Translations under genes and position numbers: made by a program | Notes under the pieces: model-generated | Database searches by the model: none | The model's input: the letters and a program-made list of their open reading frames with translations, nothing else | Told to the model about the DNA's origin: nothing | Shown here: positions 6,001 through 54,714 of the stretch, one piece after another | How the letters are laid out: each line of letters starts with the position of its first letter | How positions within the stretch are numbered: the stretch's first letter is position 1 | Assembly: GCA_020137815.1 (NCBI GenBank) | Contig: CM035358.1 | Coordinates: 5,704,001-5,768,000, forward strand | DNA from: Hormiphora californensis | Taxonomy: Eukaryota; Animalia; Ctenophora | Direction of reading: 5' to 3' | Length of the DNA stretch: 64,000 nucleotides

Positions 6001-9000
6001 CCTTATCTCTAAGAAACTTTCCCACTTTGACCCTCCTTATCTCTAAGAAACTTTCCCACTTTCAACCTCCTTATCTCTAAGAAACTTTGCCACTTTGACC
6101 CTCCTTATCTCTAAGAAACTTTCCCACTTAGACTATCCTTATCTCTATGAAACTTTTCGACTTTGACCCTCCTTATCTCTAAGAAACTTTCCCACTTTGA
6201 CATACCTTATCTCTAAGAAACTTTCCCACTTTGAACCTCCTTATCTCTAAGAAACTTTCCCACTTTGACCCTCCTTATCTCTTAGAAACTTTCCCACTTT
6301 GGCCCTCCTTATCTCTAAGAAACTTTCCCACTTCGAACCTCCTTATCTCTAAAAACTTTCCCACTTTGACCCTCCTTATCTCTAAGAAACTTTCCCACTT
6401 AGGCCTTCCTTATCTCTAATAAACGTTCCCACTTTCACCCTCCTTATCCCTAAGAAACTTTCCCACTTTGACCCTCCTTATCTCTAAGAAACTCTCCCAC
6501 TTTGACCTTCCTTATCTCTAAGAAACTTTCCCACTTTGACTCTCCTTATCCCTAAGAAACTTTCCCACTTTGACCCTCCTTATCTCTAAGAAACTTTCCC
6601 AGTTTGACGATCCCAATCTCTAAGAAACTTTCCCACTTTGACTCTCCTTATCTCTAAGAAAATTTCCCACTTTGACCCTCCTTATCTCTAAGAAACTTTC
6701 CCACTTTGAACCTCCTTATCTCTAAGAAACTTTCCCACGTTGACCCTCCTTATCTCTAAGAAACTTTCCTATTTTTACCCTCCTTATCTCTAAGAAACTT
6801 TCCCACCTTGACCTTCCTTATCTCTAAGAAACTTTCCCACTTTGACCCTCCTTATCTCTAAGAAACTTTCCCACTTAGACTATCCTTATCTCTATGAAAC
6901 TTTTCGACTTTGACCCTCCTTATCTCTAAGAAACTTTCCCACTTTGACATACCTTATCTCTAAGAAACTTTCCCACTTTGACTCTCCTTATCTCTAAGAA
7001 ACTTTCCCACTTTGACCCTCCTTATCTCTAAAAAACTTTCCCACTTTGAACCTCCTTATCTCTAAGAAACTTTCCCACTTTGACCCTCCTTATTTCTAAG
7101 AAAATTTCCCACTTTGACCCTCCTTATCTCTAAGAAACTATGCCACTTTGACCCTCCTTATCTCTAAGAAACTTTTCGACTTTGACCCTCCTTATCTCTA
7201 AGAAACTTTCCCACTTTGACATACCTTATCTCTAAGAAACTTTCCCACTTTGAACCTCCTTATCTCTAAGAAACTTTCCCACTTTGACCCTCCTTATCTC
7301 TTAGAAACTTTCCCACTTTGGCCCTCCTTATCTCTAAGAAACTTTCCCACTTCGAACCTCCTTATCTCTAAAAACTTTCCCACTTTGACCCTCCTTATCT
7401 CTAAGAAACTTTCCCACTTAGGCCTTCCTTATCTCTAATAAACGTTCCCACTTTCACCCTCCTTATCCCTAAGAAACTTTCCCACTTTGACCCTCCTTAT
7501 CTCTAAGAAACTCTCCCACTTTGACCTTGCTTATCTCTAAGAAACTTTCCCACTTTGACTCTCCTTATCCCTAAGAAACTTTCCCACTTTGACCCTCCTT
7601 ATCTCTAAGAAACTTTCCCAGTTTGACGATCCCAATCTCTAAGAAACTTTCCCACTTTGACTCTCCTTATCTCTAAGAAAATTTCCCACTTTGACCCTCC
7701 TTATCTCTAAGAAACTTTCCCACTTTGAACCTCCTTATCTCTAAGAAACTTTCTCACGTTGACCCTCCTTATCTCTAAGAAACTTTCCTATTTTTACCCT
7801 CCTTATCTCTAAGAAACTTTCCCACCTTGACCTTCCTTATCTCTAAGAAACTTTCCCACTTTGACCCTCCTTATCTCTAAGAAACTTTCCCACTTAGACT
7901 ATCCTTATCTCTATGAAACTTTTCGACTTTGACCCTCCTTATCTCTAAGAAACTTTCCCACTTTGACATACCTTATCTCTAAGAAACTTTCCCACTTTGA
8001 CTCTCCTTATCTCTAAGAAACTTTCCCACTTTGACCCTCCTTATCTCTAAAAAACTTTCCCACTTTGAACCTCCTTATCTCTAAGAAACTTTCCCACTTT
8101 GACCCTCCTTATTTCTAAGAAAATTTCCCACTTTGACCCTCCTTATCTCTAAGAAACTATGCCACTTTGACCCTCCTTATCTCTAAGAAACTTTCCTACT
8201 TTGACCTTCCTTATCTCGGGGGTTACTCAAAGACTTCTATTTCCCCTCAGGGGTTACTCAAAGATTTCTATTTCCCCTTAGGGGTTACTCAAACACTTCT
8301 ATTTCCCCTCAGGGGTTACTCAAACACTTCTAGTTCTATTTCCCCTCAGGGGTTACACAAAGACTTCTATTTCCCGTCAGGGGTTACTCAAAGACTTCTT
8401 TTTCCCCTCAGGGGTTACTCAATCACTTTTAGTTCTATTTACCCTCAGGTGTTACTCAAAAACTTCTATTTCCCCTCAGGGGATACTCAAAGACTTCTAT
8501 TTCCCCTCAGGGGTTACTGAAAGACTTCTAGTTCTATTTCCCCTCAGGGGTTACTCAAACACTTCTATTTCCCCTCAGGGGTTACTCAAACACTTCTATT
8601 TCCCCTCAGGGGTTACTCAAAGACCACCGAGGAGTTAGAGGATGACCTGGAAAATCAGAGCGAATACTTCAAAGGAGGGTTTGCTATTCTAATTATTGGA
8701 GTTGCTTCCATCTTCAACGCTCTCAGCACTGAACTGGGTAAGTTCTCTATTGTACTTTGTCACAAACTGACTGTACATCTTCTTATATGAGACTAATTGT
8801 ACTAGGTCCAAAAACTCGCGGGGACCGCGTGACGAAGATTTATGATAGTGTTATAATAAGGCTTGCAGTTCTCTTTGGACTTTGAGGCTTGAGCTGTTTT
8901 TCGTAATTTTTTAGTAGTCATCAGTTTGTTTTCCCTGCCCGGGAGGACGGAAAAGGGTTTGTGGTTGAAATATCCGGAGTAACATTATGTTCTGTTTCAG

Positions 9001-12000
9001 GAGATAAGATAAATCAAGCGTTTGCTGTTATCAAAGTGTCTGCGATAGGCATAATTTGCTGTATCGGAATATATTGGGTCCACAAAGGTGAGATAGGGAG
9101 CGATTTGATTTGAAATAAATAACCATGATAAATGCATGCACAACACATACAAACAGCATAGCAAAAAAACACACAAAAAACAGCACAGCAAAAAATTAAA
9201 AACAGTTCCCAATTGTCCTTTCCGACGTTTTTTGGCAGACGAGAGTTCATTTGTACCACATGCTTGTATACCTGTCCCACAAGCATGTACCAGTCGGAAA
9301 ACAGGTCCACGGGAAGGTTGCTCCCGTCAGCACGGTCATATTCAGCCATATACATAGCGTATAGGGGAGATGAAAGTGGATTAAGGGTACGCTAACCAAA
9401 ATTTTTTTTCGAGTGCAGGGAAATCTCTCACCGTAGGGTTGTAGGCCATGCCAAGGAGACCTCAAATATGCAATTTGAGCTCTCAAGTCGAATTCATATT
9501 TTTGCTACAGCTGCTTGAAAAATGAACTGAAAATAAGTTTTTGGCATCTTAAAAATACATTTGTAAAGATAGGATCATAAAAATTTGTGGATTTGAAGAG
9601 GACAAAGAGGTGAGTAGCCACAAAAAATGTTTTTGAAATCCGAGCTGATTTCCGGTCCTGAGATGGATTTCTTTTTTTTGACTTTAACGCCATATTTGGC
9701 CAAGTTCCGAAAATATGTGAAAGCTGTAAATTGGTCAAAAGTTGCGTCTAACGATTCTCCATATGGCCATAAATTTTGGGCGCGTCCTTATTTGAGATAA
9801 GCTGTACAGAGGTTTTTTTGTGAAAGCCGTCATTTCAGAAATAAATAAATTCCCTGTATCTCAAAAACGACTGATCGTAGAGACCTGAGACTATGCTTAA
9901 ACGATTCAGAAGGTCCGATTTTGGGGGGGTCTTCTGAGAGACATTTTGCTCCTACTTCAACCGTTTTTGCTGTAATTGCGAAAAACAAAAATCCATCTTC
10001 GCCATCGTGGATTTTTTGTGATTTTGTTTTTGGTGATTATAGGGACCCATATGGACCAAATAGTGAAGAAAGTAGCTTGTTACACATTTTTCCATAGTTT
10101 CGGTCCTTTCTTAGCTAAAATTCCCTAATTACAGGATATTGGATTTTAGCTTTTGCCCTTTTCATAGAATTTGTTTTTCGCAATTACAGCAAAAACGGTT
10201 GAAGTAAGAGCAAAATGTCTCTCAGAAGACCCCCCCAAAATCGGACCTTCTGAATCGTTTAAGCATAGTCTCAGGTCTCTACGATCAGTCGTTTTTGAGA
10301 TACAGGGAATTTATTTATTTCTAAAATGACGGCTTTCACAAAAAAACCTCTGTACAGCGTATCTCAAATAAGGACACGCCCAAAATTTATGGCCACTTAG
10401 ATAATCGTTAGACGCAACTTTTCACCAATTTACAGCTTTCACATGTTTTCGGAACTTTGCCAAATAGGGCGTTAAAGTGGAAAAAAAGAAATCCATCTCA
10501 GGACCGGAAATCAGCTCGGATTGCAAAAAAAATTTTTGTGGTTATTCACCTTCATGTCCTCTTCAAATCCCCAAATTTTCATGCTCCTATCTTTAAAATA
10601 ATTTTTTTGAGATGCCAAAAACGTATTTACAGGACATTTTTTAAACAGCTGTAGCAAAAATATGAATTCGACTTAAGGGCTAAAATTGCATATTTGAGGT
10701 CTCCTTGGCATGGCCTACAACCCTACGGTGAGAGATTTCCCTGCACTCGAAAAAAAATTTTGGTTAGCGTACCCTTAAAGGGGATGTAGAGAAGCAATGG
10801 ACTATTATTATAGGGAAGGGGAATTAATTGCTCAGGAGATTCTAAATAATTTTGAGATCACAATTTTAAAGATCACAAATAAACTTGATTTTCTAAAAAA
10901 AGAAGAGAAAAGAGACAGATAGGGAGAAATAGGAAGAGAGATAGGAAGAGAGATAGGAAGAGAGATAGGAAGAGAGATAGGAAGAGAGATAGGGAGAGAT
11001 AGGGAGAGATAGGGAGAGATAGAGAAAGAGAGAGAGAGAGAGAGATAGGGTTAGGGTAATAGGGTATCACAAAAAGAAAACAATAAATAGACACTAAATA
11101 CTTGTTGACGTCACCCCCCCCCCCCCCCCCCCCCCCGGCCCATATCTTCGTTAATTTCTTTTTGAACATGACAGGGGCACAAAGTACAAACTATACGGAC
11201 AAACTATACGACAAACTATACGACAAACTATAGTGACATCATCAAGATACTTACCAAAATCCCTTTGCCATGTTACATTATTGACAAGGACCAAGTTATC
11301 CCAATTGAACACCTCATACCCTGCTGCATCTACATATCCCGTTCGATAAAGTCGGGATACCTCCGCGGGGGAGAGAGTTTTGTTTAGCCAATAAAACTCT
11401 GCAATCCCTCCCGTAAAGGCCTGACGCTCCTCGAAACCTCCCCCGTACTCGTCTTGCTCCTGAAACAGTACATTTCAGGAACCGACCGAATTAGGATATA
11501 CTGGTCCCTGATTGGCTGATAACCAGTCACGTGACCTAAATAGCGAGTTCTGATTGGTTGTTTACTTGTTATGTGTCGGTCGGTTCCTGATACTGCTATT
11601 CGATCAGGAATCGGGACTGTTTTGGGCACGTTACACACACATGTGTGAAGTGATTAATACCTGTCCAAAACACAGGTATCCCTTCTTCGGTAGCTTCTTT
11701 GTCGTCCCTATGTCCCCGATTAACTCTCCGTCCATGTATAGAGATGCTCCCATGGTGCTGTTCCTAGTGGTTACCACGTGATACCACTTCCCGTATGTTA
11801 GTGAGTAGTTATCACCTGTATGATAGTATAGGGATCAGGAACTGACCGAATTAAGTAAACAGCCAATCAGAAATCGTTATTTAGGTCACGTGACTGGTTA
11901 TCAGCCAATCAGGGACCAGTATTTCCTGATTCGGTCGGTTCCTGATAGGGATGGTATTGATATCTACCGAACCATCACAGAGCACGATAAAATGTGAGCC

Positions 12001-15000
12001 ACACAAGGACGATATAGTGTCAGTACTCAGTGAGGATTTCATCACTTGAAAATTGAAATCGATGTTAATTTTTCAAAACCTGTGGGGATTTGATACGCTG
12101 TCCCAAATTGCGCTTTCACCGCTCTTTCGTCATGTGTTGCAGCTTCAAAAGTGCCATTCCTCACCACCACTTCCATGTTCGCAAGGGACACGTCTGTAGC
12201 AAAGGTTACGGCTCCTTTAACATTAGTCGGTCTGCGGAGGGGAGGGATAACTTAGCCATGAGAATTGGAGTATGAAATGGTTATAGGGATCGGGATCAGC
12301 AATATTTGTCTTGCCTTTCTCTAAATTACAATGTCAACCTCTCTCCTCTCACAGTACAAGAAGATACAATTCAGTGGTCAGCGCGATGCCGGAAAGCGTC
12401 ACACTGTTGACTGTTTGTGTATGATGTCACACTGTTTGTGTATGATGTCACACTGTTTGTGTGTGACATCACACTGTTTGTGTATGGCGTCACACTGTTT
12501 GTGTATGACGTCACACTGTTTGTGTATGACGTCACACTGTTTGTGTATGACGTCATGATGACGTCATAAGCTATGACGTACTTGTAATAGATCGTATGGT
12601 AAAACCAGAAGGCAAGGGTTACATTAAGGTGGTAACCATCCTCATTGGTAAACTCATGATATGCGTAGTTATCCACCGATGGAGGGTAGGGAAAATACAG
12701 CGCTTTATCTGGGGAAAGAAGCATGTGTAACTCGATACATGGTTACCATGGTAACTACGCAATACCATGGTAACTACGCAATACCATGGTAACTACGCAA
12801 TACCATGGTAACTATGCGATACCATGGTAACTATGCGATACCATGGTAACTACGCAATACCATGGTAACTACGCAATACCATGGTAACTACGCAATACCA
12901 TGGTAACTACGCAATACTCAGCTGCGTTACTATGGAGCTACAGATAATTTCTCCTAGCTGGAAAGAGAGATTCTTACGGATTCTATCCTCTGGAGCAGTA
13001 TAAACAAGACGTGCTCCGAGTAGGACCACTAGAACAATGGTTGCCCCATAGTGAAGTCTTTCCATTATCACACGAATATATTCAAAGCACAATTGTCACA
13101 GCAGCAACCAATGCTGTTACATCAGCGGGATGAAATTCAGGAAACGATAGATTTCGAATGAAGGATTTATTTAGACTCCGTATCCCGGGACACTAGTGCA
13201 TGTGTGTCTAAAACAATTCCTGCGTGTTAGAAAATGTTTTTTATGCACGAATGAATTATATATTGTTCGCGAATCTGCATGTGTTTCATATGCATGTGGG
13301 CAGTTTATCTTGATATGCACTGATATTATAAAATTGGGCCGTTGGATTTATCGTATATTCAGAGGAATTACTGACCAAACTTTTTGAAAGTGACAGAAAC
13401 TAAATATCAAACTATGAATTATAGAGACTATGCGAGGGATAAAGGGAATAAAGCAACGCCACCATGATAGTCCTCAAGTTATACAATTGCAAACTAAAGT
13501 TAGCTCAATATTCAGCCTCCGCACTATAATAGTGGCCAGATATAATGATAGTACAATGCCTAAAGGAATTGCTATGCTACATAGATCACACTATCTGAGC
13601 TACCGTTCTTCTATAGAAGCGACTTAATTATATAAACAAAGATGTAAGTTTCATGTAGTTCGCATATGTATATGCTGCTATGACAAAGACCATGAGAGAG
13701 ACATGTCTTGACTGATCCACCTGTCATGACACAACACAGACCTAATTTGCTCGGAGCAAATTAGGTCTTTGCCTAATGGAAATTCCATATGGAAAATGCC
13801 GTTTTTAAATTCCATATTCCATATGGAAAAACGTTCATGGAAACATGGAATTTTTCTCTTGATACCAGGTGTAAGAATAGGGTTCTAAATTCATCATAAG
13901 CCGGTTTCAGATGACACAGCTTGCTTTTTAGAGTGTGAGATAGGTATCCTGTATCCTACCATTGATCTAATTGGGGCTCTCTCATTAGTAGCGACCGTGC
14001 TGTGTTCACAGAGATTGGTTAATAGAGTAGGATCATCTTCAAGAGTGCGAATATGATATGAAAATGAAATTGTTGTACGATGGCTTCCGGTGAATATATT
14101 GCCTAGTGAGCCTGGAGCCAAATTTGGCCATCAGCCTGTGCCCTGTGTGGCAGACGAAATTCGTTTCGTCTGAACATGACCCGAGGGAGGTTAACTGGTG
14201 CACGACCAGAGGAAGTGCTTCAGATAATGATATAATCTCAACCCTCTATTGACTAAGATCTACTCCTATTTTTCGGCTTGAATAATGTCTGCGACCATCT
14301 CAAAAAAACACTGTACCGGGAAACCTCGTGACAAGTGCCAATGTGTTATTTTTGACTAAATTGTACAGTAGACTTGCGATATGAGGGCCTTTTATAACAG
14401 TTTTAATTTCCAGCTTAGTGCTTAGGAGAAAGAAAATTAGTTTTTTGATGGAAATGCATGTAACTTATCAAGTTATACATTTCAAAACAAGGCTCGTTTT
14501 TTAAAATCCATATGGAATTCCATATGGAATTTTTTTGGGACATGGAAATTCCATATTCCATATGGAATTTAAAGCAATATGGAACGGACAACCCTATTTG
14601 CTCCGTAATCCGTCATGTTAACCTCACTTCATGTTAATCTCACGTCATGTTAACCTCACGCCCTCATGTTAACCTCATGCCCTATTTTTTACTCCCATGC
14701 TAACGTCACACTCCCTACCAGGCGAGTACAGTCAGCTGAATGAACCCTTTATAACGAATGAAACTACCTTTGCCAGCACAGTGAATGCCCTCACTCTCAG
14801 TATGTGGGCCTACGGGGGCTGGTAAGTTGTGGGGTGGCTTTAGTTGCCTTGTTCGACCCTCTCTCTCCGCGCCCCGCGACAAATTTACAAATGTAAAGGA
14901 GGGTTAATTAGAAGGATTAGGGTTAGTTAGAAGGATTTATTTGGGGTCTGGCGCACGCTAGACAGCTGTGTTTGAAGGGAAAAGTATGAATAATTCAAAT

Positions 15001-17959
15001 ATATTCGGGGGAAGAGCTGGCATGTTTAAAGCAATGGGGATAGATGGCTCGTTGAAACTAAACAGCAGAATGAGAATTCAGAATGTGTGTTTTACATGCG
15101 CCATCCCGTGAGTCCCGTGATCTACATACTAGCCTGGTGGGGTAGTTTGTAAGGGCCGGTTTATAGTTGTTAATGTTACTCAACAAGGGATTGATGACGA
15201 GATGATATGTCATTGTCAAGAGAGATGGAGACCGGGGAGAGACCGGGGAGAGACTGAGGAGAGAGGCTGAGGAGAGACTGAGGAGAGAGACTGAGGAGAG
15301 ACTGAGGAGAGACTGAGGAGAGACTGAGGAGAGACTGAGGAGAGACTGAGGAGAGACTGAAGAGAGACTGAGGAGAGACTGAGGAGAGAGACTGAGGAGA
15401 GAGACTGAGGGGAGACTGAGGAGAGACTGAGGAGAGACTGAGGAGAGACTGAGGAGAGACTGAGGAGAGACTGAGGAGAGACTGAGGAGAGACTGAGGAG
15501 AGACTGAGGAGAGACTGAGAAGAGACTGGGGAGAGACTGAGGAGAGACTGAGGAGAGACTGAGGAGAGACTGAGGAGAGACTGAGGAGAGACTGAGAAGA
15601 GACTGGGGAGAGACTGAGGAGAGACTGAGGAGAGACTGAGGAGAGACTGAGGGGAGATTGAGGAGAGACTGAGGAGAGACTGAGGAGAGACTGGGGAGAG
15701 ACTGAGGAGAGACTGAGGAGAGACTGAGGAGAGACTGAGGAGAGACTGAGGAGAGACTGAGGAGCGACTGAGGAGAGACTGAGGAGAGACTGAGGAGAGA
15801 CTGAGGAGAGACTGAGGAGAGACTGAGGAGAGACTGAGGAGAGACCGAGGGGAGAGACTGAGGAGCGACTGAGGAGAGACTGAGGAGAGACTGAGGAGAG
15901 ACCGGGGAGATGTGTTTTGAGGTTTTATTATCCTAGTAGGATTATAAAACCTCGCATTTATAATGGGAGATGCAATGATGTTAGACAAAGATTTGAATTT
16001 CATTTCAGGTCCTTCTTATCTTGGGTGGCGGAGGAGATTATAGATCCATCGAGAAACATTCCCCTTTCACTTTTTATTGGTAGGTCTTTATATCTCGATT
16101 GCTATAAGGCCGTGATCTGGCGGCGCCGACCCTATCTGAGCGAACAATGAGCATACAAACAGGGTCTGCATCTGGAGCCGCCATGGACAGGTGCATACAT
16201 ACCACGGCTGTATTGATTTTGAATTATAATCAGTGTTTTGGTTATATTTAATCTAATCTCACCCAATTTCAACCCATCACCCTCCTACTTGTTGAGCAGG
16301 AACCGACCGAATCAGGAAATACTGGTCCCTGATTGGCTAATAACCAGTCACGTGACCTAAATAACGAGTTCTGATTGGTTGTTTACTTAATCTGGTCGGT
16401 TCCTGTTGTTGAGTAACCCATCACCCTCCTACTTGTTGAGTAACCCATGATCTCCTCTCCAGGTATCTTTGTAGTGTGTGCGGTGTATCTTCTCTTCAAC
16501 CTTGCTATCTTCCTGGGTCCCTCTCTCTCCCACATACCCCTAAACAGTTCACCCTTCGTCCTTCTCTATGCTAGAACCGCGTGGAGTGGGTGGGGGTGGT
16601 TCTTTGCTTCGTTTTGTATTATAAGTGCAACTTATGGAGCTGTTTCAAGCAATACTATCAGTACCACGCGGTGAGTGTAATTACACAAAGTAGCAGGGTA
16701 TGAAACATGTGAAATGCGAATAGGATCAGGCCAATCCTCTGACAACTAGACAATCATGACTAGTCAACTGTCTGGCTGTCATGAATATTGTTTCTCCTCA
16801 CACCTAGATACCCCCGACAGGTTTTATCATGCGTGTGCTCGTGATGGTCACCTTCCTAGAGCTCTCTCCCTCTGCCTTCCATCTCGGTCTACACCAATAG
16901 TAGCCATTATCTTCAATGTGAGTAGAGATACTAGGTTCGTGTGTTTAGAAAACTAAACTCCAACTTACAAAAAGTACCCGGGTAACAATCAGACTCCAAC
17001 CCCCAGGCCCAACTACACCCCATTTTTATTGCCCCTTGACGACCACTCGCACCGACAACCAGCTTACATCGAGTCGGCACTAGGCCAAAAATTCCAGACC
17101 CAACTCACGTCTCACACTCCCTTCTCCTCCACCCCTTACTCAACAACCCTCCCTCCTGACAGTTTCTATTGACGGTGGTGTACATCATGGTTGGAAAACA
17201 CGCTGATCAAGTGGTAGAGAAGGTTATGTACACTCAGTGGGTCTACTTCGTCTTTGTATTCGTTGGAATCATCATTCTCCGGTTCACTCGTCCCAACATG
17301 AGACGTCCCTATAAGGTCAGTACTACTCGTCCCAACATGAGACGTCCCTATAAGGTACCAGTATGTTCACTGTATGGCGGCGCCATACCCCATTTGATTC
17401 TCAGGTGGGTCGCGGCGCCCGACAGTATGTTCAGTAGTTAGTGGATCAGTGGATCAGTGGGTCGAGTCCTACCACTGGGTAAAATCTAGACACATGACTG
17501 CAAACATGAATGGGGAAGTCAATTCTTTTATACGCGAATTGACTTCCCCGTTCGGTCATGTCTAGACTGTACAGACTATCTTAGGGACCAATTACCCTGT
17601 CTCTTCTCAGGCGCCATTTATCATCCCTGTGTTCCTCACACTGGCATCAATCCTAATGATCTTATCTCCCGTTCTCGATACCGAAAAGAATGATGACTAT
17701 ATAGTTAACATTGTCTCCAAATATGGTATTGCTGTGGGTTCCATAGTAACAGGAATACCATTCTACGTGCTGTGTATCTACCAGAAAACACGGCTATCCA
17801 TCTTCGAGCGGGCTTCAGGTGAGAAAGATCAAAAAGAGAGTGAGTGAGAGCGAGAAGGAAGAGAGAAACTACTTTATTTAGTGGGTTTTACAACTTCTAA
17901 CCCGATTTCCATTTTCAGAAAAGATGACTGAGCTCTGTAAAAAGATCGGATTCCAGTGA
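35..17959 (+). CDS. SLC7/LAT-family (APC superfamily) amino-acid permease, 5'-partial, 10 exons visible
   Basis: Phase-consistent GT-AG exons: 35-100, 8610-8737, 9001-9087, 14722-14821, 16009-16079, 16463-16670, 16821-16917, 17163-17315, 17611-17818, 17919-17959(stop). Family motifs SMWAYGGW-SFLSWVAEEIIDPSRNIPLS, RFYHACARDGHLP and LRFTRPNMRRPYKAP, plus many hydrophobic segments. The donor at 101 (GTTCCT) is weak but gives the required phase. Confidence 0.85.
130..8217. repeat. 34-bp satellite array (~8.1 kb, ~238 monomers) filling a permease intron
   Basis: Monomer ACTTTGACCCTCCTTATCTCTAAGAAACTTTCCC repeated head to tail; variant monomers recur in blocks. Confidence 0.97.
8218..8622 (+). repeat. 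Tandem array (31/38-bp units, ~12 extra copies) of a splice acceptor plus the first ~13 nt of the permease exon at 8610
   Basis: Unit TTCTATTTCCCCTCAG|GGGTTACTCAAAGAC; only the last copy continues into coding sequence (GYSKTTEELEDD...). Confidence 0.9.
9385..10774. mobile_element. Non-autonomous TIR element, ~600-bp TIRs, TTAA target duplication (Kolobok-like GG...CC ends)
   Basis: TTAA|GGGTACGCTAACC...GGTTAGCGTACCC|TTAA; 9385-~9985 is the reverse complement of ~10175-10774. Confidence 0.85.
10873..13065 (-). CDS. Secreted short pentraxin / LamG-fold protein (~248 aa), nested antisense in a permease intron
   Basis: Exons 13065-12978, 12708-12582, 12231-12080, 11815-11661, 11459-11255, 10892-10873 total 747 nt with one open frame. 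Hydrophobic N-terminus, then KALYFP..DNYA, KWYHVVTT..LYMDG and the pentraxin-type LCFGQEQDEYGGGFEERQAFTGGIAEFYWLNKTLSPAEV. Confidence 0.88.
11476..11589. mobile_element. ~110-bp hAT-type MITE (copy 1)
   Basis: TIR CAGGAACCGACCGA...TCGGTCGGTTCCTG; same family as the copies that carry 8-bp TSDs; no TSD visible here. Confidence 0.8.
11836..11944. mobile_element. ~110-bp hAT-type MITE (copy 2, opposite orientation)
   Basis: CAGG...CCTG termini, 8-bp TSD ATAGGGAT on both sides. Confidence 0.88.
12410..12555. repeat. 21-bp intronic minisatellite (GTCACACTGTTTGTGTATGAC)n
   Basis: About 7 tandem copies in pentraxin intron 2. Confidence 0.9.
12746..12917. repeat. 19-bp intronic minisatellite (CCATGGTAACTACGCAATA)n
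   Basis: About 9 tandem copies in pentraxin intron 1. Confidence 0.9.
13752..14604. mobile_element. Degraded TIR element with subterminal ATTCCATATGGAA motifs
   Basis: GGAGCAAATTAGG.../...CCTATTTGCTCC ends, with clusters of palindromic TTCCATATGGAA at both ends. Confidence 0.5.
15226..15910. repeat. 11-bp minisatellite (GACTGAGGAGA)n in a permease intron
   Basis: About 60 tandem copies; source of the spurious 275-aa SLLSLSSVSPQ ORF. Confidence 0.95.
16297..16405. mobile_element. hAT-type MITE (copy 3)
   Basis: CAGG...CCTG, 8-bp TSD TTGTTGAG. Confidence 0.88.
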
Positions 17960-18213
17960 TCATTGGTGCAGCTTGCTCTACCAGACCCTGATTGGTGCAG
18001 CTTGCTCTACCAGACCCTGTTTCAAGTTCAACAAAACAAGTGTAGTGCGAGAGAGAACTGAGAGCCATGATGGAGACACACACACATGACACTTCATATT
18101 TGACCGAAAGGAACTCCAAACTGCTTGACGCTTATAATTGCAATTGCTGTATTGCTGGAAGTGATAATGAACAAACCGTATTATTATACCTACTATTTGG
18201 AAATATTATACTA

Positions 18214-19119
18214 GTAGGGACGATAGTGTCAGTCGATGTCAGGGATTTTAAAATTTCCCTATTCAAGTGTTCGGGGAGCCTCTCCCGAGTAAAATGCGAC
18301 CAATTAGAGCTCCCAATCTTTTCTCGTTCTCTAATTATTCGTGATTATGCTAATTATGACGTCATCAGCAACTACCAGAAATCTACATCTTAGGGCTTAA
18401 ATTTTTATACTAGCTGGTAGGGGACCACTAGATTAGTGGGCAAAAATTTTTCAGGTCGATCGGAGTTATGGGCGTGGCGCTATGGCGTTTGAAAGTGTGT
18501 AATCCGGTGATGACGTCATCAAGGATTATCAAATTAGGTCAACGCGGGGGGTCGAGACCGGGTGCGTTTGATCGAGCCTGATAAGCTGATCAAAAATCTG
18601 TAGGGGTAGATCAATCCCCCAACTAGGAGCTGAGCTATTAGCGTTTTTCGGTTTTTAGGTCACGTGACTTCGTCAAAAATCAAAAAAATGCTAATAGCTC
18701 GGCTCCTAGTTGGGGGATTGATCTACCCCTACAGATTTTTGATCAGCTTATCAGGCTCGATCAAACGCACCCGGTCGAGACCCCCCGCGTTGACCTAATT
18801 TGATAATCCTTGATGACGTCATCACCGGATTACACACTTTCAAACGCCATAGCGCCACGCCCATAACTCCGATCGACCTGAAAAATTTTTTGCCCACTAA
18901 TCTAGTGGTCCCCTACCAGCTAGTATAAAAATTTAAGCCCTAAGATGTAGATTTCTGGTAGTTGCTGATGACGTCATAATTAGCATAATCACGAATAATT
19001 AGAGAACGAGAAAAGATTGGGAGCTCTAATTGGTCGCATTTTACTCAGGAGAGGCTCCCCGAACACTTGAATAGGGAAATTTTAAAATCCCTGACATCGA
19101 CTGACACTATCGTCCCTAC
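18214..19119. mobile_element. Fold-back MITE with ~440-bp near-perfect arms, TA-flanked (Tc1/mariner-type)
   Basis: TA|GTAGGGACGATAGTGTCAGTCG...CGACTGACACTATCGTCCCTAC|TA; arms almost identical around a short spacer near 18660. Confidence 0.85.
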
Positions 19120-19364
19120 TATACCTAATCCAAATATTTGGAAGATTTCCAATACGAGAATTAAAATTTATGTCACAAGACACTATGACACTTTGATTTT
19201 GATTCATTTAGAGTGTGGCATCTGAAATGCTTATTTGCTGAAATTAATTCTGATCTATCTTTTAACCCGCTGCCATGTTAAACTTTTTTACTGTTTTATT
19301 GTCTAGCCGCTGGCGGCGCCCCGTTTTGAATCTATTCGAGCCCCCGTAATCCCCCGTGTAACAC

Positions 19365-21622: not shown

Positions 21623-24600
21623 TTATGATGTCCTTATTTGGTAGTCTCCGTTTTGTGTTATGTACCGGACCCAGGGTAGGGCCTGGTAACCACTTTTCTC
21701 GATGATCTTCAAATATCGGACCTGTAGAACGGAAGAGAGATTCGTTGGATATTGTTGGAAAATAATTAAATATTCAATTGTCTCCGAGTCGGGCCGGGTA
21801 AGGAGATTTAATCTCGAAGCGTGCGTGATGTTACAGTCATGCAGCATGACGAAAGTTTAGCCAATAATTGCTAAGTAATTTACCTGTATTCCTGATACGG
21901 TGAAGTAGGGAATTTCAAATTTGACTTTTATCGGAGGTTTTCCTTCGTCCTCCTCAGCCTCGACAGAAGGAAGACAGAAGTGTGCTCGCATTAGAAAGTC
22001 TTTCCCACCCTGCGGAGAAAATAGGGTGAAATTTATTGCTTAGATTGGAGGATGGTAATGATGTGTTTTATGAAGGAGCACTTACCGGAAATTGTTTTAT
22101 GCTCCAAAACACAGCATTTTCCTCGGGGACGTACTTTACTGATCCAATAGTCGTCTGGGTGGGGAGAATTAGTGAGAATGGGTAAAAGGGATAACAGCAT
22201 TTTATTTGGGTATTTTCTCAAAAATAAGATAAAAGGAATGGTAAAAACCTGTTTACCTTGAATTTAGGGGAATCGGCATCAGGAGGAACTGGAATTATAA
22301 TTTCAACATTGTTCGCTGTCGATCGTCTCTTGAACTGACTTTTAGCCTAAACGGGGAAATAAAATACAACAACCAATTAGGGCAGGGCTGCAAGGAGTAG
22401 GATCGCGATTGCAAGGTGTCTTTTCCTGGTCCACAGGGGAGAAGAAATGTCGTGCGCGCGGAATACCCTACCCGGCGCGCGTTCGGCGTGTCTCTCAATA
22501 GAGCGCCCTCCGTATACCCCCTCATCTATCGGATTGCTGTGTATTTTATACACACACGTGTACATAAAAACTTAGTTACACTAAGAACTAGTTACTGACT
22601 AGTTACTAATAAGTTACCTTGATCATGTATTCAACACGGCTGTGAGAGTGTCGTTCTATTACACTTTCAATCAGCATTAGAGGTTTGCTCTGTGTGTTCA
22701 ACCGATAACTCATCAACTCAAATTCTCCATCAGGAGGCACAAAGGAAATCGTTCGATCATTTTCAAACCTAGGAAATTGTTTAATTATTAAACAATTTGA
22801 TCGTTTAATTAGTGTTTCTAGTCGATTATAGGATAGGAAACCACCTCTCACCTAGAGAGTCTGACACATTGATGGAATTTAACATCCTCAAGCTCCACAG
22901 CCTTGCTCTTGCTCCTTCCCGTACTTTCAAATAGGATTTTATCATTTAATCCGAGTCTTAGCTCAGGCATACCACTGAGCATAACTTTCATCTTGACAGA
23001 TCCGACAATCTCACTTTGTAGCACATTACCTTTCGCTGATACCTAGAGAGAGAGAGAGAGTCAGAGAAGGTGACATAATATACAGTTCGGTTCGCAATTC
23101 ACAAACACTCGTGCTCTCTCGCCGAATCACCAGGTTGTGTTTCGTATTGTTCATACAGCACAAGTTGTGTTGTGTGCGGTGCGATGTAATCATGTAATGC
23201 ATCCGTATTTCTCTCACTCTCTCTATCTCTACATCTCTTCGCTCCCTATCTCTGTATGTTTGTCTGTCTGTCTGTCTATCTGTCTCCCCCTCTCTCACCA
23301 GTAAATTAATAGACTCGACAACGTCCAGGAAAACTTCATTTTTCCTGTACTTGATGCCCTCCATTCGCCAGGAGACAGCATTTGTTACAGTTGGAGGTGG
23401 TCTGGGAGCAGCTTCCATCTTATGGGATTCTTGGGTAATAAACCTGAATTGGGGAAGGGATGGTTAGATAAGTGTTGGTGTCCATATCTCTTTCCATCTC
23501 CCCCTTTCTATTTCTCCATCACTAGGCAACCCCTTGCACGTGCAAACTGCCCCCAATAGTGCAGATTCCGCACGTGCTTACTCGCTTACAGTACACTTTC
23601 CAAGTTACGACTAGCTCTTTGTACATCTCGATATACTGATGATAACCACAACCTTCTTCGCATTTCTCCTGCTAGCAGCTGCAATAGTAGGAGGACTAAC
23701 CTTCCTTTGGAATTGGACAGCGCACGAAACTACCGCTGTATTCATCGGACTTAACCACAAGTCAGCTGATAACTCCGAAGAACACACCGAATGGATTGAG
23801 AACCTAGCGGGTGCAGCCGAGGAGACGGAGCGCCTTCAGAAGTCTATTATGGAATTCTACAAGTCCATCATGGCCATATCTCGACCACCCAGAAAATACT
23901 ACAGACATGTTCAAACTGAGGTGGATCTGGAGCGTGGAATGCAGTCTCTTTCAACTCAAACAAGAGATATGGAGTACAAATGGAGCCTTCCTCCAATTGA
24001 CATCTAACTCCATGGACCCAACACAACCGCACTGATGAAAACCAGAACATGACGTCACACAACATGACGTCACACAACCGGGGCAGAGTCTCCCTCCCAT
24101 TAGGGGAGCTCTCTCCACCACAATGGGGGGAGTCACACACGGAACACACACCGTCGTGGGACTCTTCGTGCCACAACTCTCTCTTCTTCTTCTTTCTCTC
24201 TTTTAGAGAGGAGAGGAGAGAGAGTTTCCCATTGCCGCGGGTCTGTAGGCGATGGCCCTGTGAGCGCGGTCAGTCTCACACAATTTTGGAAGTTTTGGTA
24301 ACAATTAGAACTTTTGGAGTTACAACTTACTCTTGAAGTATTTTAGGGTCAGTTGTCTGAGGGTACCCAAAATCCATAAACTCATCTAGCAACTCGTAGA
24401 CAATGACAAAGTTGTCTCTAATACTTTCCTCCTCGACTTCTTTGAAGTAATCGATAAACGCCTGAATAACAAAGAAATAAAGATCAGTTTTAAAATTCAG
24501 AGTGCGGGAAACAACTAACTAGCAGTATAATTACGTATAATATACAACCCATTTCTGGCTTCAACTAGGGTGATTGGGGGGAGGGGGAGGGGTGTGAGGT

Positions 24601-25800
24601 GTTCAATACGTACCTGGATCATGCGATAAAGATAGACGAATATAAGAGTCACATTGGCATTTGTCCTTGTCATCGCCACTAGGTAAAGGTTACTGTACTT
24701 TATGTACGCAAAGGTAGTCTTTTCGTGACGTAGTATCGGAGTCATAATTCCCTCTTCCTCAACCTAGTAGGAGAGGGGGTTGGTAATACTTTTCGGACAT
24801 TCTACCAAGCTCTTACTGGAGAAGGGTGGTTTGTTTCACACATAACAAGGACAGGGTGGGGATTGTATAAACTGGAAAATTAAACACAGCAGTATCACAG
24901 ATCAGAACAACTCTTATTAAAATGAAGATATTATTGAATTCGTGTTACCTCAGTGATCAGGGGCATGAAGTGATCTATCTCTGTCATCGGAATATCCCCT
25001 CTATAGTTCCGTGATATCAGAACCTGACGGAGAGAAGAGAAGCTGTTATTATATGAGGACGTTGGGCGCAGTAAAACAAATTAAACAAGCGCTAGACCAG
25101 GATCGAACCCGGAACTTATAGGTCCATGAGAGGCGAGTGTACTACACCGCTCTGTTCCTAGTTGACACATGTATCAATTATTTTCCATCTCTCTCACTCC
25201 GATTTGTTTACCTCAACTAATGGTCTTGTCTAGCTCAGTTTAAGACTGCAGTCAAGCCATCCCTCCCTCTCTGCAAATATTTGTCTCTCCCAATATCAAA
25301 ATATATGTCTCTCACTTGGCTCGGCTGAGCTCATAAATAATGTTTTAAAGTGCAGCACGCTCTCTCCCTCTCTCAAGTGTTACACTCTATGCGGGCGACG
25401 AACAATACTCAAGGATCTCTCAAAGGCTTTGTCCGAATCGCAGCACTAACATTTAACAAACAAACTAGCAAACCTGTTCTCAATATAAAAAAGGGAACCT
25501 TCGGGGACCCACCCAACCAACATAGATGTCAGATACTTGGCGGTTGAACCCAACCCCCACCCCCACCACCCCTGCCCCAAGGCCTAATCCCAACCCAAAC
25601 CCCAACCATGACACTCCAAATCAAAAAGCAATTTTTAAAAAAGGGAACAAAGACTCCCTCCACTCCCTCCACTCCCCCTCCACTCCCCACCCCCTCCACC
25701 CCCCTCAGGAAACAAAGACCCCCTCCACTTCACCTCCACCCCCCCCGGAATAACGTACCTTTCCCTTTAGGTCGAGGATGAAGATTGCGGATGCGGACAT
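21623..25800 (-). CDS. AP1M1: AP-1 adaptor complex subunit mu (422 aa, 11 exons)
   Basis: Exons 25800-25759, 25023-24949, 24763-24614, 24461-24331, 23443-23299, 23042-22852, 22768-22618, 22346-22257, 22154-22086, 22009-21884, 21721-21623 (1269 nt). MSASAIFILDLKGKVLISRNYRGD, SIRDNFVIVYELLDEFMDFGYPQ, VSWRMEGIKYRKNEVFLDV, ISFVPPDGEFELMSYR, VRYLKIIEKSGYQALPWVRYIT. Confidence 0.96.
23639..24007 (+). CDS. Candidate nested single-exon gene (122 aa; N-terminal signal/TM, helical body) antisense in AP1M1 intron 4
   Basis: ATG-initiated, non-repetitive ORF with hydrophobic FFAFLLLAAAIVGGLTFLW followed by a charged helical region; no family recognised. Confidence 0.4.
   Translation: MITTTFFAFLLLAAAIVGGLTFLWNWTAHETTAVFIGLNHKSADNSEEHTEWIENLAGAAEETERLQKSIMEFYKSIMAISRPPRKYYRHVQTEVDLERGMQSLSTQTRDMEYKWSLPPIDI
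25088..25152 (-). mobile_element. Degraded tRNA-derived SINE head
   Basis: Reverse complement reads GGTGTAGTACAC...GGGTTCGATCCTGGTCTAGC, similar to the head at 60570-60640. Confidence 0.5.
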
Positions 25801-31040: not shown

Positions 31041-31494
31041 CAGCGACACTGCATCTCCCAATTCTTATGGAGCTAGACAGTTTTGTAATTTGGACTTTTT
31101 TTATCTTTTGAAATCGAAGAAATTAAAAATGCAGCCAGGTTGCAAAATAAAAGCGCGCAAATGATTAGATGCAGCGCAAAACGTTTCTACGTTGCATTAC
31201 CAAAATGCGCGTCGCAACCGTCTTAAAAAACTTCGGTTTCGTCGGTTTCGTCGCGTCTTTCATTTTACTTTTTTGTCTGCTCGTTTGAGTTTTGAGAAGC
31301 GTTGCTTTATCCCGATTTGTCCGTCCGTCTCGCTTATAATTTCTACTTTCTCTAATAAATAAGGATATATTTAAATTTTTGCTTATTTTGCTTATTGCTT
31401 TCAAATTTCAAATGTTCTCAGATAAGGGCTGCGCCCTGTGGCGCCTGATTGTTTTTAGAACTTTTACTCTTAATTTCAACTTCATAGTTGTGCT

Positions 31495-44964
<13,470 letters not shown>

Positions 44965-45279
44965 AGGTAATATATGACGTGGCGTTTAGCTGGAATGTGT
45001 GAACAGTTTTTTCATTTGTTTGTATTCTGTCTAACCCCATCCCTTTTTTCAGCGCACATCAAAAAAGGATGAAGCTCTGACGGAACAATTCACCGTGGTT
45101 CAGATCTACTATATAATAGACACTTTTCCTGCCCCCTCTCCTATTTTGCCCCTTTTCCCATTGCCTCCCGACGGAGGTGTTTTTTATTTTTCTTTAAAGT
45201 TTTTTTTGCTATTTTTTTCGATTTTTTTTCCGTTTTTTATTTAATAGTTCTTTCACCGTTCCTTGATGTTTCTCCCGTA

Positions 45280-50036: not shown

Positions 50037-50097
<61 letters not shown>

Positions 50098-50707: not shown

Positions 50708-50799
50708 CAGGAACCGGCCAATCAGAACTCGTTATTTAGGTCACGTGATTGGTTATCAGCCAATCAGGGACCAGTATTTCCTGATTCGGTCGGTTCCTG
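50708..50799. mobile_element. hAT-type MITE (copy 6, internally deleted)
   Basis: 8-bp TSD ATGTTGAG. Confidence 0.85.
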
Positions 50800-51109: not shown

Positions 51110-51338
51110 AGTCGGATTTTTTGAAACTGTCACCCCCCTGGGTATTTTCAATTTTTGTAAATGACCATAAATGGCCATATCTCCGGTTCCTGACGAGATA
51201 GAGACTTGAAATTTGGAGGTTACGAAGATCTTGCTAAGTTCTTCCGAACCTCCAAATTTCAAGTCTCTATCTTATCAGGAACCGGAGATATGGCAAATTT
51301 TGTTATTTCAGGGGGGTGACAGTTTCAAAAAATCCGAG
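51110..51338. mobile_element. MITE (TCGGATTTTTTGAAACTGTCACCCCCCTG TIR)
   Basis: Inverted ends plus an inner hairpin; related ends at 60719-60917. Confidence 0.7.
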
Positions 51339-51910
51339 TATACTTTTCCCACGAGACGCGCATAACAACTGCTAACAATAGTGAACACTAGAGTTTCAAA
51401 ACATCGCGCGCTCCAGCATTAACACGGGAGATGGTGTGACAAGGGGGGCAAAACTCGGGTCGATATTTCCACACTATGTGGACAAATAGTGTGTGTTGTG
51501 TGTGACCAATCGTGGTGTGCGTTTATTATCTGAGACCCCGGTGTCGGCTTGTTGTTTCTTTTATAAATTATAGTTCTTAGTTCATGGTCTAGTCACGCCT
51601 CCCAGACATTGTGGCCAGGTGATAACTCGAGTGTTGTTCAGGAGAGAAATTTTGAACCGAACAAGCTAGAGAGTTCTTTTTGTACAAAATACATATATGT
51701 AAAACTACAAATTAAAAACAACAGCAGTTTTTAAGGTCTATACACATGTTTCATGGTGCCCCACGAGGAGGCACCAATCATCATATGTAAAACTATAATA
51801 ATAATAACTTAATCCACATAGATCCAGTCCTTCAAATTGATTGTCCTAAGTATGAAAATAATCCATTTAAAAACTCAAATCTAGCCCTGAGGGTCTGGGG
51901 CCGGATAAAT

Positions 51911-54714
51911 TCAGCTCTCTAACAAGTTGTTATCCCTGAACAGCTCAAAGAACTCTCCACATCGGGCAGTAATCTTGGTATTTGTAACGTGGTCAGCACG
52001 AGTTGTCCCAATATTCAGGATTGCTATCTCCTTGTTTCTCTTTTTAGAGTCCAGAATGAACCGATAACCTGTGAGAATGGGTTGTTCATTTAAAAACAGG
52101 ATAATACATGTAAAGTCGGATAGAGGCGGGAATCGTGTCGTTTTTAAAAAATTTTTCACCGCAAACTCGTTATTCATTGACCCACACTGTCGACAGCTGT
52201 CGTACCTGACATGACGTGAAGAGAGGAGCCTGCAACAAGAATCCTATCAGCAGCTCTGACTCTCTCATAGCAGAATTCAACTTTCTCTGAACCGACGTTG
52301 GCGCCAAAAAATACCACCTGAATAATATTGGAAGTGGAGAAAATATCCAAAAAAAGATAACACCATAGGGAAATTTATAAATTTATTCATTAATTCCCCG
52401 CGGGGATCATATATCATGTACCTGTGGCTTCAATAGATCACTACCACAGTCAGGACAAAGGGGCGTGTTGAATGATCGGATCAGTTCCGTATCTATCTCT
52501 GCATCAGCATCAGGAGTGACGTTGATTATCTCAGCTAACAAACTCACTGTTGTACGATTGTATGTAACCCTGCAAGAGGTTATATCAATACGACTGTAAC
52601 CATGCAAGAGTTTGGTATGTGCATTATTTGGGCATGCATTGAGAGATCTGATAAAGTACCTACCTGGAAACTCTCCCTGTGTGTGACGTAATTACCTGGA
52701 AACTGTCCCTGTGTGTGACGTAATTACCTGGAACTCTCCCTGTCTGTGACGTAATTACCTGGAAACTCTCCCTATCTGTGACGTAATTACCTGAAAACTC
52801 TCCCTGTCTGTGACGTAACTACCTGGAAACTCTCCCTGTCTGTGGCGTAATTACCTAGAAACTGTCCCTGTATGTGACGTAATTACCTGGAAACTCTCCC
52901 TGTCTGTGACGTAATTACCTGGAAACTCTCCCTGTCTGTGACGTAATTACCTGGAAACTGTCCCTGTCTGTGACGTAATTACCTGGAAACTCTCTCTGTC
53001 TGTGACGTAATTACACCTCTGACACGTCACGATGTTTGTGGTCCCGTGTAGCTCCGTCACTTTAGTACTCCCCGCCTTTTGGTGCAGCCTGTCCACGTTT
53101 TGTGTTATCACCCAATCAACCTGATCAAGGATAAAATGACAGTTTTAATTTAGTTGAGTCGCCTGTTGGCTACGAAGTCACCACTATTGTCCAGTACAGT
53201 CTACAGACTACAGTGATATGATCAGGTTAAAACCTACCATATTATGTTTTTCCATTGCAGCCAGGACAGAGTGGGATATGTTAGGCTTCTTCTCAATAAA
53301 AACCGGAAATCCGACAAAGTTTCTTGCCCAATACCTAAAAAGTATTGATTAATTAACCAACAATTAATTATTACAGATACAACCAAATAACACAACTTCT
53401 CTTCCCACATGATCGCATCACAAAACTTAGAATTAAGCTCACTCTCCCGCCTACTCACTGCACTAATACAGTCAGACCCAGATTCACCGGAACCCCGATT
53501 TACTGAAGTATTAGCTTCCCCGGCCCCGATATAGGAAATCAACGGTATTTGACCCCTATTTACCGTGAACCCCCCCCCCCCCCCATTTACTGGACAAACC
53601 CCTTTTCCCCCGACTGTTGGTGACGCAGTCACCCTTATAACTCGCGCGCGTAGCGCGCGAAAACGAAGCCCGCGAAGCGGGCTGAGAGGTGATGGCATCA
53701 CCAACCCTGACTGTAAATCCGACTGTAAATCCGACTGTATAATAACTAACACACCTCTGTCTAGCTTTTGCATCCGTCATGAACTCCATATGTTGGATGG
53801 GCCTGTGTTTAGTTCTGTCGTAGAGGCCAACACCTTCACTCCTATAGTCCGGTATACCTGGAACAATGATAAGTCACAGGAACCGAATCAGGTAATACTG
53901 GTCCCTGATTGGCTGATAACCAATCACGTGACCTAAATAACAAGTTCTGATTGGTTGTGTCATAGAGGCCAACGCCTTCACTTCTGTAATCCGGTATACC
54001 TGGAACAATTCCTGTCATAATTCATATTCTATGATTGTGAAACATACGCTCCAGTTACAAATTGGAAACTGGCATCAGGTTGGAAACTGACATCAGTTTC
54101 TAGCTGAGAGACTCCTGATGAGCCATGCTGCACACGTCAATTTATGTGATCACGAGATCGATATGTATATCGTTAACCAACCTGATTCAGTAGATAGTCC
54201 AGCCCCCGTTAACCAACCTGATTCAGTGGATAGTCCAGCCCCCGTTAACCAACCTGATTCAGTAGATAGTCCAGCCCCCGTTAACCAACCTGATTCAGTA
54301 GATAGTCCAGCCCCCGTTAACCAACCTGATTCAGTAGATAGTCCAGCCCCCGTTAACCAACCTGATTCAGTAGGATAGTCCAGCCCCCGTTAACCAACCT
54401 GATTCAGTAGATAGTCCAGCCCCCGTTAACCAACCTGATTCAGTAGATAGTCCAGCCCCCGTTAACCAACCTGATTCAGTAGATAGTCCAGCCCCCGTTA
54501 ACCAACCTGATTCAGTAGATAGTCCAGCCCCCGTTAACCAACCTGATTCAGTAGATAGTCCAGCCCCCGTTAACCAACCTGATTCAGTAGATAGTCCAGC
54601 CCCTGTTAACACCACCAAACTCTTTGCCTCAGTTATAAATCTCTCCAGCTGATCGTATTGGTAGGTTGTGAGTGCGGTGTGTCTTGGAACACATTTCTGG
54701 AGAATCCTAACCAT
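51911..54714 (-). CDS. SIRT4: SIRT4-like (class II) NAD-dependent sirtuin, 7 exons; apparent +1 frameshift in exon 5 as assembled
   Basis: Exons 54714-54579, 53857-53755, 53334-53238, 53120-52983, 52569-52422, 52317-52206, 52068-51911 (892 nt = 3n+1). [47 protein letters not shown], two CxxC pairs, LKP-VVFFG, GSSL.V.SGYRF, ILNIG.TRAD. Confidence 0.9.
52662..53014 (-). repeat. Ten extra tandem copies of the last 32 nt of SIRT4 exon 4, each junction forming a CAG|GT donor
   Basis: Unit GTAATTACGTCACAGACAGGGAGAGTTTCCAG; the distal copy ends in CAG|GTAGGT. Confidence 0.92.
53468..53739. mobile_element. TA-flanked CAGTC...GACTG MITE (pogo/Tc1-type); related piece at ~34958-35640
   Basis: TA|CAGTCAGACC...GACTG|TA ends with the GAACCCCGATTTA motif shared with 34958. 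Confidence 0.55.
53877..53958. mobile_element. hAT-type MITE (copy 7, truncated)
   Basis: CAGGAACCGA...GGTCCCTGATTGGCTGATAACC...GATTGGTTG; lies between two copies of the start of SIRT4 exon 2. Confidence 0.8.
54171..54610 (-). repeat. Eleven extra tandem 36-bp copies of the SIRT4 exon 1 end plus donor (encoding [12 protein letters not shown])
   Basis: Unit GTTGGTTAACGGGGGCTGGACTATCTACTGAATCAG. Confidence 0.93.

What the first reader, a model, noticed from the sequence alone, without database searches (positions are those of the whole stretch)
8218..54610. Recurrent tandem copying of exon edges with their splice sites (splice-site-seeded arrays)
Seen: at about ten exon-intron boundaries in three unrelated genes, the intron next to the exon is built from copies of that boundary. 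Permease: acceptor 8610 (~12 extra copies), donor 17315 (1). TNPO1: donor 33908 (3), acceptors 37263, 39920, 40438, 44737. SIRT4: donors 54579 (11) and 52983 (10), acceptors 53857 and 52569. Each array has its own sequence, so this is a local process rather than a dispersed repeat family. Inference: exon edges may act as anchors for slippage, template switching or unequal inter-allelic exchange where introns are hypervariable. The spliceosome must then pick the exon-proximal site among many identical decoys. This could be a route to intron growth, splice-site turnover and tunable exon length. I do not know of it being described as a system, but cannot search.
Basis: partly seen in the sequence, partly recalled or inferred. 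Interest (0 to 1): 0.88.

Follow-up and report, generated by a model that had tools for sequence, protein, structure and literature searches.

The report
Comb-jelly exon-edge 'mirage' duplications
In this genome, likely a comb jelly's, short stretches covering an exon's edge and its splice signal have repeatedly been copied into the neighbouring intron, a likely harmless oddity already known from lancelets and humans, and one copy appears to have been taken from a different version (allele) of the same gene.

Summary
Real, but a known kind. Ten of the eleven claimed junction copies are confirmed; 44737 is too weak. Over five modelled genes, 10 of 89 splice junctions have a junction-spanning copy in the adjacent intron, about 2-4 times chance (p 0.001-0.05 by per-event nulls). 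A held-out gene (AP1M1) has 0 of 20, and the window was chosen for the pattern. Short-read contigs from two samples hold the copies tested. One sample has an extra unit at 40438, and a related species lacks the SIRT4 arrays. Such repeats are published as lancelet 'mirages' and as human F7/CBS minisatellites, and this scan noted them before in urchins and annelids. The cases are mechanistically mixed: microhomology-bounded arrays, a 16-nt duplication around a captured repeat fragment (39920), and a SIRT4 copy that differs from its exon at five synonymous sites only, likely a join of two diverged alleles (53857). Only 4 of 30 decoy sites tested keep an open frame, so 'tunable exon length' is unsupported. 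No RNA data were available. Most likely a tolerated by-product with a modest exon-edge bias.

The parts
8219..8624 (+). Permease acceptor 8610 array: 31/37-nt units (15 exonic + 16-22 intronic nt); 11 upstream copies keep AG, plus a partial copy at 8220
   Evidence: not checked in reads
17286..17356 (+). Permease donor 17315: one copy at +39; exonic 30 nt identical, intron starts differ (gtcagtact vs gtaccagtat); in frame
   Evidence: not checked in reads
33895..33985 (+). TNPO1 donor 33908: three copies (+25, +50, +74) with three different intron starts; the first filler contains an inverted version of the second
   Evidence: not checked in reads
37207..37270 (+). TNPO1 acceptor 37263: two 24-nt copies, one without AG; a like unit is implied in the genome behind protein P0006
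39807..39932 (+). TNPO1 acceptor 39920: 16-nt junction duplicate flanking a 94-nt insert that is largely a piece of a dispersed repeat; the exon-proximal acceptor's pyrimidine tract is repeat-derived
   Evidence: (depth 3365-7810 vs about 130-1090 elsewhere in X2; loose ends of other family copies)
40231..40442 (+). TNPO1 acceptor 40438: about 140-nt duplication ending about 10 nt into the exon; a further unit in sample S2
   Evidence: joint 40393 back to 40263 in X5
44587..44743 (+). TNPO1 acceptor 44737: near-junction duplicate that does not span the junction; claim not confirmed
54171..54610 (-). SIRT4 donor 54579 array: 36-nt unit, 11 extra copies, GTTAAC microhomology; no array cover in organism B
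53806..54024 (-). SIRT4 acceptor 53857: upstream 66-nt copy (25 intronic + 41 exonic nt) with five synonymous-only exonic differences, then a 5'-truncated MITE, then the intact exon; likely two-allele chimera
52656..53014 (-). SIRT4 donor 52983 array: 32-nt unit, 10 extra copies, GTA microhomology; the exon-proximal donor GTAATT is built from exon sequence; array absent in organism B
52563..52613 (-). SIRT4 acceptor 52569: one degenerate copy at -32 with AG lost
31488..45200 (+). Host gene TNPO1 (transportin-1), 21 exons modelled
8610..18060 (+). Host gene: amino-acid permease (SLC7-like by recalled motifs), 3' part, 8 exons
   Evidence: AA_permease_2 hit weak, E 0.007, below Pfam cut-off
51880..54714 (-). 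Host gene: sirtuin (SIRT4-like by recalled motifs), 7 exons
   Evidence: SIR2
21623..25800 (-). Held-out control gene AP1M1 (adaptor medium subunit), 11 exons; 0 of 20 junctions copied

Best explanation
These are 'mirage'-type duplications of exon edges that likely arise by several error-prone copying and repair routes, likely persist because the splice site nearest the exon is the one used, and sit on junctions about 2-4 times more often than chance in this window. Shown: the copies, short shared words at two array break points, a captured repeat piece at 39920, synonymous-only divergence at 53857, copy-number difference between samples, absence from a related species. Inferred: step 1, a short duplication forms by slippage or template switching at microhomology, sometimes copying the homologous chromosome. 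Step 2, selection removes those that alter the mRNA. Step 3, some expand into minisatellites by unequal exchange. The edge bias likely has two sources: exchanges between alleles pair in conserved exons and derail where indel-rich introns begin, and DNA next to a splice site is shielded from deletion. No function is needed.
For: 10 of 89 junctions against a 2.4-3.0% terminal-unit rate at 2385-2539 intronic GT/AG controls and 3.9% at 2040 intronic positions. Per-event test over 44 introns: 9 of 38 events span a junction, 2.9 expected, p 0.001; 7 of 36 after dropping the two weakest, p 0.013. Microhomology GTTAAC (54579) and GTA (52983). The 53857 copy has 5 of 5 exonic differences synonymous, chance 0.0005-0.001. 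Its intron flank is the one organism B joins to the exon (joint 53866-54014), and the downstream acceptor carries the MITE's presumed 8-bp target site (3 of 4 full MITE copies have 8-bp target duplications). 26 of 30 decoys tested shift frame or add a stop. In human F7 only the most upstream of identical donors is used (PMC1557585); lancelet mirages do not disturb splicing (PMC3087553). A pleurobrachiid genome is reported 3.2% heterozygous with indel-rich introns (PMC8527503).
Against: Held-out genes: 0 of 22 junctions (Fisher p 0.06 against 10 of 67). Per base, an intronic position has a nearby copy as often as a junction does (0.13-0.16 vs 0.11-0.15); enrichment appears only when array ends or events are counted. 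In short introns the per-event test is marginal (5 of 13, 2.3 expected, p 0.05). Non-spanning repeats are also denser within 60 nt of junctions (12 in 5.1 kb vs 17 in 15.0 kb, p 0.04). One window, chosen for this pattern; my event list was hand-curated and control positions are not independent. Decoys often score as well as or better than the proximal site (33908, 39920). The inter-allelic route rests on one clear case. No RNA was examined, so which site is used is inferred.
Confidence: 0.7

Rival explanations
1. No special bias: introns here are full of local repeats, some of which overlap junctions, and the window and genes were picked because they had many.
For: Any-direction coverage of introns equals the junction rate; AP1M1 0 of 20; short-intron per-event p 0.05.
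Against: With held-out genes included the excess stays (10 of 89, p 0.002-0.007; 9 of 38 events, p 0.001). Matched GT/AG controls in short introns give 6 of 414 against 5 of 66 junctions. The null counts every junction-spanning duplication as tolerated, which favours chance.
Confidence: 0.15
2. A transcription- or splicing-coupled process (R-loops, spliceosome-linked breaks, RNA-templated repair) targets duplications to splice junctions.
For: The number of distinct events peaks at the junction itself; similar density is noted by this scan in other phyla (unchecked notes).
Against: Copies contain both exon and adjacent intron, so they are not mRNA-templated. Break points lie 8-41 nt or more inside exons, not at the splice site. 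The cases are mechanistically mixed.
Confidence: 0.08
3. The arrays are selected, functional ladders of alternative splice sites that tune exon length or mRNA level.
For: Two units are multiples of three and open (39 nt at 17315; 36 nt at 54579); most copies keep GT/AG.
Against: 26 of 30 tested decoys break the frame or add a stop. The 54579 extension would fall in the sirtuin GAGxSTESG motif (established knowledge: NAD-binding loop). The arrays are absent from the related species. Two older copies have lost AG.
Confidence: 0.05
4. Assembly artefact.
Against: X2 contigs with 0 differences span the 39809 and 40297 copies; X5 from another sample has related forms. Array-matching contigs exist in X1 and X5. 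Units carry shared variants. Exact copy numbers remain unverified.
Confidence: 0.02

Closest known systems
Lancelet 'mirages' (Adh3, troponin C, globins BflGb6/BflGb9, PGBD5; PMC3087553 and PMC3902484, passages read)
   Same: Minisatellite-like tandem duplications spanning 5' or 3' exon-intron boundaries, several per genome, locus-specific units, many but not all keeping GT/AG, copy number differing between haplotypes, mechanism stated to be unclear.
   Different: Different phylum; a measured excess over controls; two cases here are not tandem (captured repeat piece, MITE-containing chimera); normal splicing is shown in lancelets but untested here.
Human donor-spanning minisatellites: F7 IVS7 (37 bp), CBS IVS13 (31 bp), 6-16, LMNB2, PDGF (PMC1557585, abstract, Introduction and Discussion read)
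   Same: First unit spans the exon-intron boundary; identical pseudo-donors follow; unit sizes match 54579 (36) and 52983 (32).
   Different: Isolated human cases against about 11% of junctions here; in 6-16 and CBS two proximal pseudo-sites are also used, which cannot be excluded here.
Human CBS 844ins68 (PMC2630376, passages read)
   Same: Single duplication of an intron-end/exon-start junction in which the two copies differ in the exon part and the exon-proximal site is used; resembles 53857 and 40438.
   Different: One coding difference in CBS against five synonymous ones plus a MITE remnant here.
Internal tandem repeats at exon-intron boundaries of human duplicated genes (PMC2812944, passages read)
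   Same: About 30-bp units at boundaries that change intron length.
   Different: There they often create new introns or alternative transcripts; no new intron is seen here.

Membership tests
Mirage / junction-spanning minisatellite | Repeat unit contains an exon-intron boundary of the host gene | tested here: met
   10 junctions
Mirage / junction-spanning minisatellite | Copies lie head to tail in the adjacent intron | tested here: met
   Met for 8610, 17315, 33908, 37263, 40438, 54579, 52983; degenerate at 52569; not met for 39920 and 53857
Mirage / junction-spanning minisatellite | Both donor and acceptor boundaries affected; many but not all copies keep GT/AG | tested here: met
   4 donors, 6 acceptors; AG lost in copies at 37238, 52602 and 8220
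Mirage / junction-spanning minisatellite | Copy-number instability between haplotypes | tested here: met
   Extra unit at 40438 in one X5 contig; SIRT4 arrays absent from organism B; other arrays not resolved by short-read contigs
Mirage / junction-spanning minisatellite | mRNA spliced normally at the exon-proximal site | not testable with these tools
   No run on record as RNA held the stretch; frame and homology only
Mirage / junction-spanning minisatellite | Somatic instability (Adh3) | not testable with these tools
   Needs tissue-level long reads
Dispersed repeat / transposon family | Same unit at several loci | tested here: not met
   Units are locus-specific; swapped pairs 0 of 2178. 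Only the inserts at 39823-39916 and 53882-53958 are dispersed repeats
Intron gain by tandem duplication (Rogers model, as described in PMC3087553) | New intron whose two ends derive from the duplicate | tested here: not met
   All copies lie within existing introns; organism B has introns at the same SIRT4 positions

The most novel reading that the evidence does not exclude
In highly heterozygous animals, exon edges are 'homology cliffs' where repair between homologous chromosomes derails and leaves a piece of the other allele's exon edge in the intron. This would be the unexplained seed of mirage minisatellites, would regularly replace the working splice site with a newly built one (52983, 39920, 53857), and would leave frozen snapshots of other alleles inside introns, recognisable by synonymous-only differences.
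Probability: 0.3. Interest if true: 0.65.

Novelty: new member of a known kind. Interest (0 to 1): 0.35.

Why it matters
The repeat type is known, but the lancelet paper calls its origin unclear. A compact genome with about one junction in ten affected, and with a copy that betrays its template by synonymous-only divergence, makes that question testable: compare each copy with phased alleles. It also offers natural tests of splice-site choice among identical sites outside bilaterians, and a practical warning, because such copies mislead gene prediction (model P0006 uses the upstream unit at 37263).

Tried and rejected
No whole genome is held, so the genome-wide test could not be run. An exact scan of metagenome contigs for a MITE motif, meant to fetch further loci of this lineage, found 0; the second scan was not used. 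No RNA holder was listed. X12 laid 0 records. Logan contigs cannot give array copy number; depth sums were read only as presence. The letters of organism B at the five synonymous sites of SIRT4 exon 2 fell among 138 rows not shown, so the direct allele test is open. No relation was found between the 34-nt satellite unit and the 31-nt unit by local alignment. A classical retroposon target-site duplication at 39920 was rejected, because other family copies run on beyond both ends of the insert. Acceptors 43793 and 44737 and donor 39090 were examined and not counted (scores under 14). The original mirage paper (PMC117041) is not held. Ten literature searches listed no genome-wide enrichment test and no ctenophore report; most subscription papers and all supplements were not seen.
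Full report
Setting. No whole genome is held. A TNPO1 exon (39923-40144) is 100% identical over 74 aa to P0006. From the style of that record's id I recall it as a pleurobrachiid comb-jelly gene model; this is recall, not a tool result. P0006 differs from the window at a few residues and in intron-derived parts, so it comes from another assembly.

Observation. Each junction (25 nt on each side) was aligned, anchored at the boundary, to up to 500 nt of its own intron. 0 of 2178 swapped pairs reach 14, so splice consensus alone does not make such matches. In the held-out genes 0 of 22 junctions are copied, giving 10 of 89 overall.

More than chance? It depends on the null. Per base, 14.7% of 2040 non-microsatellite intronic positions (of 2139 sampled) have a copy nearby, the same as junctions, because long arrays dominate. 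A junction, however, must lie in the end unit of an array. That rate is 3.9%, or 2.4-3.0% at intronic GT/AG sites (n 2385-2539), against 11.2%. Counting events, 9 of 38 local duplications in 44 complete introns span a junction where 2.9 are expected (p 0.001). It is 7 of 36 without the two weakest (p 0.013), 5 of 13 in the 33 short introns (2.3 expected, p 0.05) and 9 of 21 within 60 nt of a junction (p 0.03). The 8610 array was left out of event counts because its intron is incomplete. From the 41 clusters I dropped two exonic ones, three pairs of dispersed or chance matches and one microsatellite pair, merged two, and added five. Non-spanning repeats are also denser near edges (p 0.04; profile). 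The excess is thus about 2-4 fold, in one window selected for the pattern.

Real DNA? Sixteen runs were listed, none on record as RNA among the holders; six were laid, on 2 stretches covering 6 of the 10 cases. X2 contigs with no differences span the copies at 39809 and 40297; this sample may be the assembly's source. X5, from another sample and study, has a contig with a further unit at 40438 (joint 40393 back to 40263). X1 and X5 hold contigs matching both SIRT4 arrays. Organism B (X8, X14) has no cover there and bridges 52578-52980 with 121 other letters, so its intron 4 is about 133 nt against 413 nt. P0006 reads SLTTSLFQ before the 37263 exon where the window reads GLTTSLF-stop, so that unit is shared with another genome.

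Anatomy: not one process. (a) Head-to-tail arrays with short shared words at the break: GTTAAC at 54579, GTA at 52983. At 52983 the unit is almost all exon; the proximal donor GTAATT is made from exon sequence, the donor with unique intron behind it (GTAGGT) lies 319 nt away, and organism B matches only GTA into the intron. A new donor has likely replaced the old. (b) At 17315 and 33908 the exonic parts are near identical but the intron starts differ, one with a small inversion, which fits templated repair or different alleles (inference). (c) At 39920 a 16-nt duplicate flanks 94 nt that are mostly a fragment of a dispersed repeat. The upstream acceptor scores higher (9.0 vs 4.2) but would give a stop, so the working acceptor is likely the new, repeat-derived one. 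Whether organism B has the insert is unresolved. (d) At 53857 the upstream copy differs from the exon at five sites in 41 nt, all synonymous (chance 0.0005-0.001). A neutral copy would not diverge so; its template was likely a coding version diverged from today's exon. Its intron flank is the one that organism B joins to the exon (joint 53866-54014, side 30 nt). The present acceptor follows a 5'-truncated MITE whose right flank TGACTTAT matches TGAATTAT before the copy; this MITE family makes 8-bp target duplications in 3 of 4 full copies. The simplest reading is a switch from a MITE-free allele, 41 nt into the exon, back into the MITE of a second allele. A paralogue or introgressed template is not excluded. 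Five changes in 41 nt exceeds the 9 in 118 between organism B and the window at this exon, so the donor allele would have been unusually divergent.

Consequences for splicing. Of about 40 copies with intact GT/AG I translated 30; 4 are in frame and open (17354; 54543, 54507, 54399) and 26 shift frame or add a stop. A splice-site matrix from the window's 89 junctions scores most array copies equal to the proximal site, so position, not strength, must decide. In human F7 only the most upstream of identical donors is used, though 6-16 and CBS also use two further sites (PMC1557585: abstract, Introduction, Discussion). Use of the proximal site here is inferred from frame and homology only.

Comparison with what is known. 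[quoted passage not shown] The original report (PMC117041) was not available. CBS 844ins68 is a single acceptor duplication with differing copies (PMC2630376, passages). PMC2812944 (passages) covers boundary repeats in human duplicated genes; PMC8527503 (passages) reports 3.2% heterozygosity and indel-rich introns in a pleurobrachiid. The term 'mirage' reached me through earlier notes of this scan, which report the same pattern in urchins and annelids, twice with about 2-fold excess; those are unchecked AI notes. Ten searches listed no ctenophore report and no genome-wide enrichment test; supplements were not read.

Verdict. A real, modestly enriched, lineage-specific set of mirage-type duplications; a new member of a known kind. 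What is fresh is the 53857 case, which points to the homologous chromosome as template, and two likely replacements of the working splice site. Interest 0.35.

Noticed in passing
window 129-8217 (+): An 8.1-kb satellite (34-nt unit, 238 copies, 92%) runs directly into the 8610 array. Its unit resembles a branch point plus pyrimidine tract, and its last unit abuts a copy of the exon start, so it may be an older array seeded from an earlier version of the same acceptor. No alignment to the 31-nt unit was found.
   Followed up: partly
window 52537: One extra base shifts the frame in SIRT4 exon 5; it is absent from X5, X8 and X14, and an X1 contig ends there. Likely an assembly error or a rare null allele.
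   Followed up: partly
window 11476, 11944, 16297, 20046, 40567, 50799, 53882: High-copy MITE of about 110 nt with CAGGAACC ends and 8-bp target duplications (hAT-like by recall), shared with organism B. An X2 and an X5 allele carry another copy just after TNPO1 donor 40144 (loose ends at 40148/40157).
   Followed up: partly
window 45963-48854 (+): Intact 963-aa endonuclease/reverse-transcriptase ORF of a LINE just behind TNPO1, with an upstream ORF-like stretch from about 45310.
   Followed up: partly
   Followed up: partly
window 11250-12350 (-): Exon-like stretches on the minus strand inside the first modelled permease intron; possible nested gene.
   Followed up: no
window 55610-56223 (-): Two-exon gene for a small secreted beta-trefoil (ricin-B-type) lectin-domain protein.
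   Followed up: partly
window 29181-31011: Several near-identical 150-700 nt segments containing exon-like pieces on the minus strand, repeated in tandem.
   Followed up: no
window 26588-27256 (+): 24-nt tandem array in an open frame (PEKTADPV-like repeat).
   Followed up: no
window 17962-18022; 39093-39158; 43693-43768; 53709-53739; 16271-16448: Short duplications that start within about 30 nt of a junction or the permease stop codon without spanning a junction; part of the wider near-edge excess.
   Followed up: yes
window 9381-10778, 18212-19121, 41164-41430, 60917-62576: Long inverted-repeat (foldback) elements, the last with telomere-like TTAGGG tracts.
   Followed up: no
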